From Escherichia coli (GTDB lineage Bacteria > Pseudomonadota > Gammaproteobacteria > Enterobacterales > Enterobacteriaceae), in assembly GCF_017348835.2 (NCBI RefSeq), contig NZ_CP071375.1: a stretch of 64,000 nucleotides of DNA. One strand, 5' to 3'. This document shows positions 36,801 to 39,800 of the stretch, in pieces. The position numbers are program-made. Within the stretch, counting starts at the first letter, position 1; every line of letters begins with the position of its first letter.

Positions 36801-39800
36801 TTAAATAAACAGAGAGCCAGATTAAATACCTGAGTATAAAATCTCTGCTGATGTTTAATTGATTTGAATGTTCGTAAGCTATATCACTTACTCAATCCAT
36901 TTTACCCAGAGTCATAAAATAGAGTGTCTGTTGATCTCATTTTCATATTCCTTTCAGACTGAAGTGCGTTTTCATCACCCGATGAGAAAGAACTGAAGTG
37001 ATGTTTGCCATAGATTACGAGATGCCCAGTCTCATTGACTATCGTGGTGCACCTTTATACCTGTTATACCAGATCAAAAATCACGCAATCCATACAACGA
37101 AACCAGATTTGCAATTCGTGTCACAAAATATGTCGATATTTTTCTAAGAAGAAGATGCCATGTGAAGCCAGACGAACACTTGCGGAGGCCTTCATAAACC
37201 AGAGATATTTGTTTAATTATCTGTTTTATATGTGATTTATTTAGAGTCTAAACAAGGGAGGCTTTGCAAGCTAACTTAGTGGGCGTGGTGAAAATAAGTG
37301 TTTACCCGCCATCAGGCTGAGCATAATTCTCATCATGAAATATGTTTCCTGGTTTGTGGCTTGTAGCTGGTCACTCCTGAAGTCTCTCTGGAGAGGCTTG
37401 TTGATGTTGGTGTTTTCAGGGGGATGCCTCACTTAGTTTGTTTGCCGTATCGCCCGGCGAATAGCTGTGATTGAGGAAGGTTTAAGTCGCAGTGACCAAA
37501 GCCATATTTACCAACGGATGCAGATGAAAAAATCATCTCCTGCTTTCCCCCATATCTCCATGATAAAAAGGAATGTAACAATCTCATGGACTAAACTGAC
37601 GAACCAGCCAGGAATAATCGCTAGGGACCTAAGAATTAGCCTGATAATAGCCACTAAGAAATTACTGCGTTCCATGAAATAGCCATTTTGTGGCAAATGG
37701 AGTTGACTAATAATGTCATATGTGAGACGGCTAGTTGAACGAATATTAAATTTTGCTGAATTTTTTATGTTGATTTTACTTGTTACAGAACATATCACAT
37801 GATATATAGATAAGATTAGTTGCATTAATGATGAGGGTTATTATTAGATTCGTATCAGATTGATAAATATATAAAAGTATATAGCATGCAAGAGCATGGC
37901 GTTTGTATGGCAAAGTTATTATAAGTAACTGTTGCTACTCCATTTAAGTTCACTCAGAAGAACTGGTCCACTTACGTTAGTTATTAAGCAAACGTTCGCT
38001 TTTATAAACATAATCAGGATAAAAATGTTGGATTATTGCTAACCCAGCACAGCTAGTGCGCGTCTGTAATTATAAGGGAAAAACGATGAAGAATAAGGCT
38101 GATAACAAAAAAAGGAACTTCCTGACCCATAGTGAAATCGAATCACTCCTTAAAGCAGCAAATACCGGGCCTCATGCAGCACGTAATTATTGTCTGATTT
38201 TGCTTTGTTTTATTCATGGTTTCCGGGCGAGTGAAATTTGTCGATTGAGGATTTCGGATATTGATCTTAAGGCAAAGTGTATATATATCCATCGATTAAA
38301 AAAAGGCTTTTCAACAACGCACCCGCTATTGAACAAAGAAGTTCAGGCTTTAAAAAACTGGTTGAGTATCCGTACTTCGTACCCGCATGCTGAGAGCGAG
38401 TGGGTATTTTTATCGCGTAAGGGGAATCCGCTTTCTCGGCAACAGTTTTACCATATTATCTCGACTTCCGGTGGTAATGCCGGGTTGTCACTGGAGATTC
38501 ATCCGCACATGTTACGCCATTCGTGTGGTTTTGCTTTGGCGAATATGGGAATAGATACGCGACTTATCCAGGATTATCTTGGGCATCGCAATATTCGTCA
38601 TACTGTCTGGTATACCGCCAGCAATGCAGGGCGTTTTTACGGCATCTGGGATAGAGCCAGAGGACGACAGCGTCACGCTGTTTTATAGAGATAGTTGAGA
38701 TACCAGGGATGGTGTTAAAAACTACATTATTCTTACGATATATCAAAAATGATTAACCATTTATTAATTGATGTTATTGTAAGTGTGATTCTTAATTACC
38801 ATAATAAACATTAAGTTAACCATATCCATACAAAATACAATGGTTTATGTTCTTCAAAATAAATAAACAAAATCATTCATAAATTTACACATCACTTAAA
38901 TTCTCCTGTTTCCGCACTTTTTTCTTTATTTTTTAAGCAACTGGAAGTTAATCCACTGCAATCTATTGTTATATTGAATCAAATCAATGAAAATAGATGT
39001 TGTCACATCAGTGATATTTTATTTTTGTATGATATTTAATGTAATTGACTGATAGCCACATCACTTCGTGTGTGGTTATCTTTTTATCTATTGGGCTAAT
39101 TTTGACCGATTGAGGTTTCCTATAGGTATTCATTTAAATATATCTCAGTTAGGAGTACTACTATTGTGAGTAAACGTCGTTATCTTACCGGTAAAGAAGT
39201 TCAGGCCATGATGCAGGCGGTTTGTTACGGGGCAACGGGAGCCAGAGATTATTGTCTTATTCTGTTGGCATATCGGCATGGGATGCGTATTAGTGAACTG
39301 CTTGATCTGCATTATCAGGATCTTGACCTTAATGAAGGTCGAATAAATATTCGCCGACTGAAGAACGGATTTTCTACCGTTCACCCGTTACGTTTTGATG
39401 AGCGTGAAGCCGTGGAACGCTGGACCCAGGAACGTGCTAACTGGAAAGGCGCTGACCGGACTGACGCTATATTTATTTCTCGCCGCGGGAGTCGGCTTTC
39501 TCGCCAGCAGGCCTATCGCATTATTCGTGATGCCGGTATTGAAGCTGGAACCGTAACGCAGACTCATCCTCATATGTTAAGGCATGCTTGTGGTTATGAA
39601 CTGGCGGAGCGTGGTGCAGATACCCGTTTAATTCAGGATTATCTCGGGCATCGAAATATTCGCCATACTGTACGTTATACCGCCAGTAATGCTGCTCGTT
39701 TTGCCGGATTATGGGAAAGAAATAATCTCATAAACGAAAAATTAAAAAGAGAAGAGGTTTGATTTAACTTATTGATAATAAAGTTAAAAAACAAATAAAT

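What the first reader, a model, noticed from the sequence alone, without database searches (positions are those of the whole stretch)
37046..37070. Nan box (GGTATA repeats) in the long nanC-fimB intergenic region
The minus strand reads GGTATAacaGGTATAaagGTGCAC, matching the NanR operator pattern. It lies in the 1.4-kb AT-rich nanC-fimB intergenic region, which in K-12 is known to couple sialic acid sensing to nanC expression and, at long range, to fimB. The small ORFs the track calls here are more likely regulatory DNA.
Basis: partly seen in the sequence, partly recalled or inferred. Interest (0 to 1): 0.3.

Follow-up and report, generated by a model that had tools for sequence, protein, structure and literature searches.

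The report
Known NanR operator between nanC and fimB
This is the already-characterised binding site for the sialic-acid repressor NanR in the E. coli nanC-fimB intergenic region; it is real and strongly conserved, but ordinary.

Summary
On the minus strand at 37048-37070 the window reads GGTATA-aca-GGTATA-aa-GGTGCA, with a GATC one base upstream. That is two perfect Nan-box hexamers plus a degenerate third, in the same register as the three-repeat nanA and nanXY operators. The 23-mer is unique in the window and never appears in shuffles. The window is E. coli, nearly identical to pig strain PE164.

The box lies in the 1454-bp, 36.8% G+C spacer between nanC (ATG at 36631, minus strand) and fimB (ATG at 38086, plus strand). 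It is base-for-base identical to K-12. [quoted passage not shown]

The 30-mer holding GATC and the box is exact in 4745 complete E. coli genomes. The neighbouring 30-mer is exact in 775. Its 20-base core is exact in 87 nanR-nanA spacers across Enterobacterales.

The small ORFs over the box show no coding signature.

Verdict: already known. Strain-specific side notes: the Dam site next to the presumed NagC operator is lost, and fimA is frameshifted.

The parts
37048..37070 (-). NanR operator (Nan box, O_NR): GGTATA (37070-37065), aca, GGTATA (37061-37056), aa, GGTGCA (37053-37048, degenerate third repeat)
   Evidence: sequence and uniqueness. (identical to K-12). (same register as the nanA and nanXY operators). 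(exact in 4745 E. coli genomes). (centre at -756 from the fimB TSS, matching published O_NR).
37072..37075 (.). Dam site (GATC) 1 nt upstream of repeat 1. It corresponds to the GATC reported to lie within 5 bp of each NanR site.
   Evidence: Present in the same place at nanXY and nanA. The literature statement is in PMC5155068. It is one of only two GATCs in this spacer.
37110..37125 (-). CRP-like site TGTGA-N6-TTGCA (8 of 10 consensus positions), inferred. Its centre is about 47 nt upstream of the box, which would be about -61.5 if transcription starts about 7 nt after TATAAC of repeat 1.
   Evidence: the best CRP-like 16-mer sits in the same register at nanXY (9 of 10) and 1 nt closer at nanA (8 of 10). 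Inference only; the start site was not mapped here.
37110..37132 (-). Candidate NagC operator O_NC1 (CATATTTTGTGACACGAATTGCA, obeys TT-N9-AA), inferred
   Evidence: coordinates. Lies in a 33-bp run (37105-37137) invariant in 9 diverse strains. A footprinted NagC site serves as template for the pattern (PMC5401889). The K-12 GATC directly beside it fits my recollection of Sohanpal 2004. Not verified against the primary paper.
37322..37344 (+). Candidate NagC operator O_NC2 (CATAATTCTCATCATGAAATATG), inferred
   Evidence: Core invariant in the 9 strains and largely kept in lineage E69. Its centre is 212 bp from the O_NC1 candidate and 482 bp upstream of the inferred fimB TSS (published 'around 470').
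37621..37647 (+). SlyA operators O_SA2 (CTAGGGACCTAA) and O_SA1 (TTAGCCTGATAA, 1 mismatch to K-12). Used here as the anchor that places the fimB transcription start near 37815.
   Evidence: PMC3173223 states that O_SA1 spans -179 to -168. Found.
35915..36631 (-). nanC, first gene of nanCMS. The box begins 439 nt upstream of its ATG.
38086..38688 (+). fimB, the recombinase gene whose expression the distant NanR and NagC sites are published to activate in K-12
   Evidence: literature.
36632..38085 (.). nanC-fimB intergenic region: 1454 bp, 36.8% G+C, no annotated genes

Best explanation
The sequence is the NanR operator (O_NR) of the divergent nanCMS and fimB control region of E. coli.

- **Binding.** Dimers of the GntR-family repressor NanR bind cooperatively to the phased GGTATA repeats. 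Two perfect repeats suffice for nanomolar binding. The degenerate third repeat may or may not recruit a third dimer.
- **Action on nanC.** The box belongs to a promoter-operator module shared with nanA and nanXY. The module comprises a CRP-like site, GATC, and then the repeats, whose TATAAC/TATAAA could serve as a -10. Bound NanR therefore blocks nanCMS transcription until N-acetylneuraminate releases it.
- **Action on fimB.** The same bound NanR sits about 756 bp upstream of the fimB start. In K-12 it raises fimB expression together with NagC, so sialic acid lowers fimB expression and OFF-to-ON switching of type 1 fimbriae.
- **Dam.** The adjacent GATC is expected to be shielded from Dam methylation while NanR is bound.

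**Shown here:** the motif, its uniqueness, its identity to K-12, its conservation and its position. **Taken from the literature:** binding, repression, long-range activation and methylation protection. **Inferred:** the nanC start site within the module (implying a leader of about 420 nt) and the CRP and NagC site assignments.

Identity to the characterised K-12 locus:
- The box is identical, with only 1 mismatch in about 90 bases around it.
- The K-12 box is at L001 3418-3440. O_SA1 at 4005-4016 gives a TSS at 4184, so the box centre is at -755. In the window it is at -756.
- The published position is 'around 760' (PMC3173223).

Published NanR binding:
- NanR genomic SELEX peaks fall in the nanC/fimB spacer.
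- A (GGTATA)2 oligonucleotide binds NanR with KD 25 nM against 20 nM for three repeats. One repeat binds poorly, and lengthening the spacers weakens binding (PMC8012715).
- nanCMS is a NanR-regulated operon with an upstream operator (PMC3658417).
- A GATC lies within 5 bp of all three NanR sites (PMC5155068).

Paralogues fetched here:
- The nanXY and nanA operators share GATCtGGTATAacaGGTATAaaGGT exactly.
- nanC and nanXY share a 53-nt module at 88.7% identity (hit H30).

Conservation:
- The box is invariant in 9 diverse E. coli, with variable columns abutting both ends.
- The 30-mer GATC+box is exact in 4745 genomes. The neighbouring 30-mer is exact in 775.
- In the divergent lineage E69, 37050-37149 is 94-96% identical while the flanks are 54-67%.
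- The 20-mer core is exact in 87 nanR-nanA spacers of Enterobacterales, starting 52-61 nt (mostly 57-60) upstream of nanA.
Against: - No binding, expression or methylation experiment exists for this strain.
- nanR itself is outside the window.
- The third repeat departs from consensus at 2 of 6 positions, and no nanA operator surveyed carries GGTGCA. Occupancy by a third dimer is therefore uncertain.
- The consensus promoter scan finds no sigma-70 promoter at the box. The box is 416-439 nt from the nanC ATG, so the claim that it overlaps the nanC promoter rests on analogy with nanA and on my unverified recollection of Condemine 2005.
- fimA is frameshifted in this strain. The Dam site beside the presumed NagC operator is lost. 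O_SA1 carries a substitution. The downstream consequence for fimbriation may therefore differ from K-12.
- The primary mapping papers could not be read.
Confidence: 0.93

Rival explanations
1. The box is a working NanR operator for nanCMS only. In this strain it has no meaningful long-range effect on fimB or fimbriation, because the fimB-side circuitry has drifted.
For: - fimA is frameshifted, with residues 1-67 and 60-182 in different frames (annotated as frameshifted in PE164).
- The GATC beside the presumed NagC site is GATA.
- Only 2 of K-12's 6 spacer GATCs remain.
- O_SA1 has a substitution.
- The spacer between 37183 and 37282 and around 37533-37582 is highly polymorphic.
Against: - The candidate NagC sites and the 104-bp block around the inferred fimB start (37742-37845) are invariant across diverse strains.
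- fimB and fimE are intact.
- The GATA allele is common, in 1028 genomes, so it is not a sign of decay in this strain.
- The fimA frameshift could be a sequencing error or a recent lesion, and it does not affect fimB regulation itself.
Confidence: 0.12
2. The match is a chance occurrence of TATA-rich sequence in AT-rich intergenic DNA. At most it is a -10-like promoter element with no regulator attached.
For: - The spacer is 36.8% G+C.
- TATAAC and TATAAA inside the repeats resemble -10 hexamers.
- Single GGTATA hexamers occur at the chance rate in the window (30 against about 31).
Against: - 0 of 100 shuffles give the 23-mer at up to 3 mismatches.
- The 25-nt core is shared with the two other NanR-regulated promoters.
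- The 20-mer is exact in 87 nanR-nanA spacers.
- The box is exact in 4745 genomes while its neighbouring 30-mer is exact in 775.
- A SELEX peak falls in this spacer.
Confidence: 0.01
3. The sequence is conserved because it encodes part of a small protein: the 49-aa ORF at 36998-37147 or the 66-aa ORF at 37035-37235, both on the plus strand.
For: The 49-aa ORF is open in all 9 E. coli strains compared.
Against: - The 49-aa ORF shows 7 non-synonymous against 2 synonymous differences.
- In lineage E69 its GTG start reads as a glycine codon and its stop codon as a glutamate codon.
- The 66-aa ORF has internal stops in 7 of 9 strains.
- There are no Pfam or NCBIfam hits.
- PGAP calls no CDS there in the 8 annotated full-length spacers inspected.
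- Conservation peaks on the operator and promoter module, not along the ORF.
Confidence: 0.02

Closest known systems
E. coli K-12 NanR operator O_NR ('region 1') in the nanC(yjhA)-fimB intergenic region (El-Labany 2003; Sohanpal 2004, 2007; Kalivoda 2013)
   Same: - Identical 23-bp box and identical GATC.
- Identical flanks apart from scattered SNPs.
- Same distance to nanC.
- Same computed position relative to the fimB start: -755 in K-12 and -756 here.
   Different: Nothing differs within the operator. Outside it, this strain has GATA instead of GATC 63 bp towards fimB. It has 2 rather than 6 GATCs in the spacer and one substitution in the SlyA site O_SA1.
nanATEK-yhcH operator of E. coli, the (GGTATA)3 operator studied structurally by Horne et al. 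2021
   Same: - Same 25-nt core GATCtGGTATAacaGGTATAaaGGT.
- Same spacers of 3 and 2 nt.
- A CRP-like site about 46-47 nt upstream.
   Different: - The third repeat is GGTATA in most E. coli-type nanA operators. It is GGTGTA in strain PEC41 and GGTGCA here.
- The nanA box starts 52-61 nt (mostly 57-60) from the ATG, whereas the nanC box starts 439 nt from its ATG.
- The nanA box is not known to act at long range on a divergent gene.
nanXY (yjhBC) operator
   Same: - A 53-nt promoter-operator module at 88.7% identity to the nanC module (H30).
- A CRP-like site in exactly the same register.
- A similarly long distance of about 412-434 nt to the start codon.
   Different: nanXY has three perfect repeats. 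The nanXY operon is absent from this window and from about 85% of E. coli isolates (PMC10088187).

Membership tests
NanR operator (Nan box) of the E. coli sialoregulon | At least two direct GGTATA repeats with 2-3-nt spacers | tested here: met
   The sequence is GGTATA-aca-GGTATA-aa-GGTGCA. Two repeats suffice for nanomolar binding (KD 25 nM), and altered spacing weakens it (PMC8012715).
NanR operator (Nan box) of the E. coli sialoregulon | Lies upstream of a NanR-regulated operon (nanATEK-yhcH, nanCMS or nanXY) | tested here: met
   The box starts 439 nt upstream of nanC, followed by nanM. nanCMS is listed as NanR-regulated with an upstream operator (PMC3658417).
NanR operator (Nan box) of the E. 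coli sialoregulon | Sequence homology to the experimentally studied K-12 site, and agreement with its published position | tested here: met
   Identical to K-12. The centre is at -756 from the fimB TSS when anchored on O_SA1, against the published 'around 760'.
NanR operator (Nan box) of the E. coli sialoregulon | GATC (Dam site) within 5 bp of the NanR site | tested here: met
   The GATC at 37072-37075 is 1 nt from repeat 1. The literature statement is in PMC5155068.
NanR operator (Nan box) of the E. coli sialoregulon | Physical binding of NanR, relieved by N-acetylneuraminate | not testable with these tools
   Published only for the identical K-12 sequence (SELEX). One SELEX study reports that NanR stays bound at this site even with Neu5Ac.
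NanR operator (Nan box) of the E. coli sialoregulon | A cognate nanR gene in the same genome | not tested
   nanR is not in the window. nanRATEK is present in more than 99% of E. coli isolates (PMC10088187).
NanR operator (Nan box) of the E. coli sialoregulon | Third GGTATA repeat, which gives a three-dimer complex | tested here: not met
   The third hexamer is GGTGCA, matching 4 of 6 positions. This is the normal state of the nanC operator (K-12 and O157 are identical). The third repeat is also degenerate in 43 of 87 nanA operators across Enterobacterales. It is therefore not a strict requirement.
NagC operators O_NC1 and O_NC2 of the fimB control region | 23-bp site with TT-N9-AA and T-rich/A-rich arms; two sites 212 bp apart; GATC adjacent to O_NC1 | tested here: inconclusive
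   The candidates at 37110-37132 and 37322-37344 satisfy TT-N9-AA, and their centres are 212 bp apart. They are conserved. The adjacent GATC of K-12 is GATA here. The assignment rests on one template site and on my recollection of Sohanpal 2004 and 2007, which are not readable here.

The most novel reading that the evidence does not exclude
The operator itself is textbook. The only non-trivial reading left open concerns Dam-linked control. About one fifth of E. coli, including this strain, carry GATA instead of GATC beside the presumed NagC operator, and this strain keeps only 2 of K-12's 6 spacer GATCs. If methylation state feeds back on NanR or NagC occupancy, as has been speculated, these lineages would couple amino-sugar sensing to nanC and fimB differently from K-12. 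In them, NanR at this box would be the sole methylation-sensitive input.
Probability: 0.07. Interest if true: 0.35.

Novelty: already known. Interest (0 to 1): 0.08.

Why it matters
The site links host-derived sialic acid to two colonisation traits. One is uptake of sialic acid through the NanC porin. The other, through fimB, is phase-variable type 1 fimbriation. That link was worked out in K-12 two decades ago.

Confirming it here adds little beyond correct annotation. This spacer should be labelled regulatory DNA (NanR, NagC, CRP-like and SlyA sites), not small genes. The population data show that the operator is among the least variable parts of an otherwise polymorphic spacer. This is consistent with selection on the operator across E. 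coli.

Tried and rejected
- **Primary papers not held.** Sohanpal 2004, Kalivoda 2003 and 2013, and Condemine 2005 are absent from the library under DOI or PMC id. Searches for the literal operator string and for 'nanC-fimB' found nothing. I therefore anchored the published map indirectly, through the SlyA operator coordinates in PMC3173223.
- **Promoter and terminator scan.** No sigma-70-like promoter was found at the box, and overall counts were at or below shuffle expectation. This is uninformative for a CRP-dependent promoter.
- **Rfam scan of 36500-38200.** There were no hits at E-value up to 1, so no known RNA element lies in the putative long nanC leader.
- **Pfam and NCBIfam scans of the eight intergenic ORFs.** No hits.
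Not done as such. The only operator set I could gather was selected by an exact 20-mer, so a matrix built from it would be circular. Consensus-with-mismatch searches and shuffles were used instead.
- **Direct comparison with PE164.** A naive fixed-offset comparison failed. BLAST showed the reason: the window carries a 12-kb insertion relative to PE164.
- **nanS.** I considered calling nanS truncated in this strain. I dropped the idea because PGAP also flags K-12 nanS as partial, and a 335-aa ORF is present in the window.
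Full report
**Observation**

The minus strand of 37070..37046 reads GGTATAACAGGTATAAAGGTGCACC. The motif proper occupies 37048-37070.

- GGTATA-N3-GGTATA occurs once in the 64-kb window. With up to one mismatch, 0.08 matches are expected by chance.
- The 23-mer of the classical nanA operator (GGTATAACAGGTATAAAGGTATA) matches here with two mismatches. It matches nowhere else at up to three, and no shuffle gave a match.
- Single GGTATA hexamers are at the chance level, 30 against about 31. The signal is the phased repeat.

Comparison with the paralogous operators shows the better parse is GGTATA-aca-GGTATA-aa-GGTGCA, a degenerate third repeat in register. A GATC sits one base upstream of repeat 1 (37072-37075).

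**Context**

- The window is E. coli. The 1454-bp stretch between nanC and fimB is 100% identical to pig strain PE164 and 95.8% identical to K-12 MG1655. It is present in 5109 of 5426 complete genomes.
- From 31596 to 58086 the window is 99.996% identical to PE164.
- nanC is 35915-36631 on the minus strand, and fimB is 38086-38688 on the plus strand.
- The spacer is 36.8% G+C, against 49.3% for the window.
- PGAP annotates nothing between nanC and fimB in K-12, in PE164, or in the six further full-spacer strains fetched.

**Identity with the characterised K-12 site**

The box, the GATC and about 90 bases around them are identical to K-12 except for one flanking SNP.

I could not open the primary footprinting papers, so I anchored the published map indirectly.

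1. McVicker et al. 2011 state that the SlyA operator O_SA1 (TTAGCATGATAA) spans -179 to -168 relative to the fimB start. [quoted passage not shown]
2. O_SA1 is at L001 4005-4016 in K-12. Its homologue, TTAGCCTGATAA, is at 37636-37647 in the window.
3. This puts the fimB start at about L001 4184 in K-12 and about 37815 in the window.
4. The box centre is then at -755 in K-12 and -756 in the window.

Independent support comes from several papers.

- Genomic SELEX with purified NanR gives a peak in the nanC/fimB spacer (PMC5934670; PMC4797297).
- nanCMS is described as carrying a NanR operator upstream (PMC3658417).
- All three NanR sites are reported to have a GATC within 5 bp (PMC5155068).
- Horne et al. 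2021 show that two GGTATA repeats bind NanR with KD 25 nM, against 20 nM for three. Two complexes form instead of three, one repeat binds poorly, and lengthening the spacers weakens binding (PMC8012715).

**Paralogous operators**

Weak secondary BLAST hits led to the other two sialoregulon operators: nanXY in strain 300081, and the nanR-nanA spacer in strain PEC41.

- All three share GATCtGGTATAacaGGTATAaaGGT exactly.
- The third hexamer is GGTATA at nanXY, GGTGTA at nanA of PEC41 (GGTATA in other Escherichia), and GGTGCA at nanC.
- nanC and nanXY share a 53-nt module at 88.7% identity (H30).
- Each module carries its best CRP-like 16-mer at a nearly fixed distance upstream of the box. These are TGTGAcacgaaTTGCA at nanC (8 of 10), TGTGAcatcagTAACA at nanXY (9 of 10, same register) and AGTGAagcagaTCGCA at nanA (8 of 10, 1 nt closer).

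Across 87 nanR-nanA spacers the box starts 52-61 nt (mostly 57-60) upstream of the nanA ATG. The nanA transcription start must therefore lie in or next to the box.

By homology of the module, I infer that nanC transcription also starts there. TATAAC of repeat 1 would serve as the -10, and the CRP-like site would sit near -61.5. This implies a leader of about 420 nt. nanXY has a similar distance of 412-434 nt to its start codon. This step is inference. The generic promoter scan sees nothing at the box.

**Conservation**

- In nine diverse E. coli (94.6-100% identical over the spacer), 37046-37075 is invariant. Variable columns abut it on both sides, at 37044-37045 and 37076.
- At population scale, the 30-mer GATC+box is exact in 4745 genomes. 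The adjacent 30-mer, 37016-37045, is exact in only 775. The 40-mer is exact in 4525 genomes, with one mismatch in a further 471. In O157:H7 that mismatch lies outside the box.
- In the divergent lineage represented by strain E69, identity to the window is 96% and 94% in 37050-37149. It is 62% just nanC-side and 67%, 54% and 66% fimB-side. E69 carries GGTACA as its third repeat.
- The exact 20-mer core was found 90 times among one genome per species of the GTDB set. Of these, 87 are nanR-nanA spacers of Enterobacterales (Citrobacter, Enterobacter, Kluyvera, Raoultella, Rahnella, Buttiauxella, Salmonella arizonae and diarizonae, and others). Only E. coli-type DNA shows the nanC context.
- Among those 87, the third hexamer is GGTATA in 44, GGTATG in 21, GGTACA in 15 and other in 7. 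GATCT precedes the box in 46. A degenerate third repeat is therefore common and no argument against function.

**Small ORFs**

Two ORFs overlap the box: 36998-37147 (49 aa, GTG start) and 37035-37235 (66 aa, TTG start).

- The 66-aa frame has internal stops in 7 of 9 strains.
- The 49-aa frame stays open in E. coli but shows 7 non-synonymous against 2 synonymous differences. In E69 its start reads as a glycine codon and its stop as a glutamate codon.
- None of the eight intergenic ORFs hits Pfam or NCBIfam.
- Rfam finds no RNA family in 36500-38200.

**Neighbouring sites (inferred)**

I used the TT-N9-AA rule, visible in a footprinted NagC site (PMC5401889).

- CATATTTTGTGACACGAATTGCA (37110-37132, minus strand) is a NagC-like candidate. 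It lies inside a 33-bp invariant run.
- CATAATTCTCATCATGAAATATG (37322-37344, plus strand) is the second candidate.
- Their centres are 212 bp apart. The second is 482 bp upstream of the inferred fimB start.
- These figures agree with the "around 470", and with the 212-bp O_NC1-O_NC2 spacing that I recall from the abstract of Sohanpal et al. 2007. That recollection is from my own knowledge and is not verifiable here.

**Mechanism**

Shown here are a unique, phased, highly conserved Nan box. It is identical to the K-12 site and sits at the published position.

From the literature:
- NanR dimers bind the repeats cooperatively, and Neu5Ac weakens binding.
- nanCMS is derepressed by sialic acid.
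- NanR and NagC bound here raise fimB expression from a distance.
- The adjacent GATC changes methylation state with NanR occupancy.

Inferred: the operator overlaps the nanC promoter, and the third hexamer probably binds weakly or not at all.

**Verdict**

Nothing about the operator itself is unusual. Interest is low.

Noticed in passing
window 37135-37138 (variant base 37138): The GATC that K-12 has 63 bp fimB-side of the NanR-associated GATC is GATA here. It lies directly beside the candidate NagC operator, and I recall it as the NagC-protected Dam site. The exact 30-mer with GATA occurs in 1028 complete E. coli genomes and the GATC version in 3652. It is therefore a common polymorphism that removes a regulator-protected methylation site.
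   Followed up: partly
window 36632-38085: The spacer has only two GATC sites (36933 and 37072), whereas K-12 has six in the homologous 1455 bp.
   Followed up: partly
window 37636-37647: The SlyA operator O_SA1 reads TTAGCCTGATAA, against TTAGCATGATAA in K-12 and TTAGCTTGATAA in O157:H7. The variable base lies inside the published operator. O_SA2 is unchanged.
   Followed up: no
window about 40243-40781: fimA is frameshifted. K-12 FimA residues 1-67 and 60-182 align in different frames, and PE164's annotation flags the same thing. If this is real, the strain cannot make the major type 1 fimbrial subunit, whatever fimB does.
   Followed up: partly
window 19521-31595: About 12 kb is present in the window but absent from the otherwise near-identical strain PE164. 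It is inserted beside IS30/IS3 remnants in the island downstream of a tRNA-Leu gene. Its contents were not examined.
   Followed up: no
L003 2498-2575 (nanXY promoter, strain 300081) compared with window 37048-37125: nanC and nanXY share a roughly 53-nt promoter-operator module. The CRP-like site is in identical register, and both have unusually long distances (about 410-440 nt) from the box to the start codon. This suggests duplication of a regulatory module together with a long leader architecture. nanXY itself is absent from this window.
   Followed up: partly
L085 (E. coli strain E69, CP089930.1): This is a divergent Escherichia lineage whose nanC upstream region is mosaic. Identity to the window is 94-96% over the operator and promoter module but 54-67% in the flanks. 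The divergence begins within the third repeat, which is GGTACA.
   Followed up: partly
L004 2508-2530 (nanA operator, strain PEC41): This E. coli strain has GGTGTA as the third repeat of its nanA operator instead of GGTATA. It appears to lack the nanC-type box, because the 40-mer query found only its nanA operator (H42).
   Followed up: no
L010, L076, L079: Contigs labelled Bacteroides MAG, Methylobacterium mesophilicum and Chryseobacterium sp. carry enterobacterial nan or fim sequence. These are, respectively, E. coli nanC-fimB spacer DNA, a 265-bp nanXY promoter fragment, and a Citrobacter-like nanRAT locus. They are most likely assembly or binning contamination.
   Followed up: no
window 37742-37845: This is the longest invariant run of the spacer, 104 bp across nine diverse strains. 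It surrounds the inferred fimB transcription start at about 37815. The stretches 37183-37282 and 37533-37582 are hypervariable.
   Followed up: no
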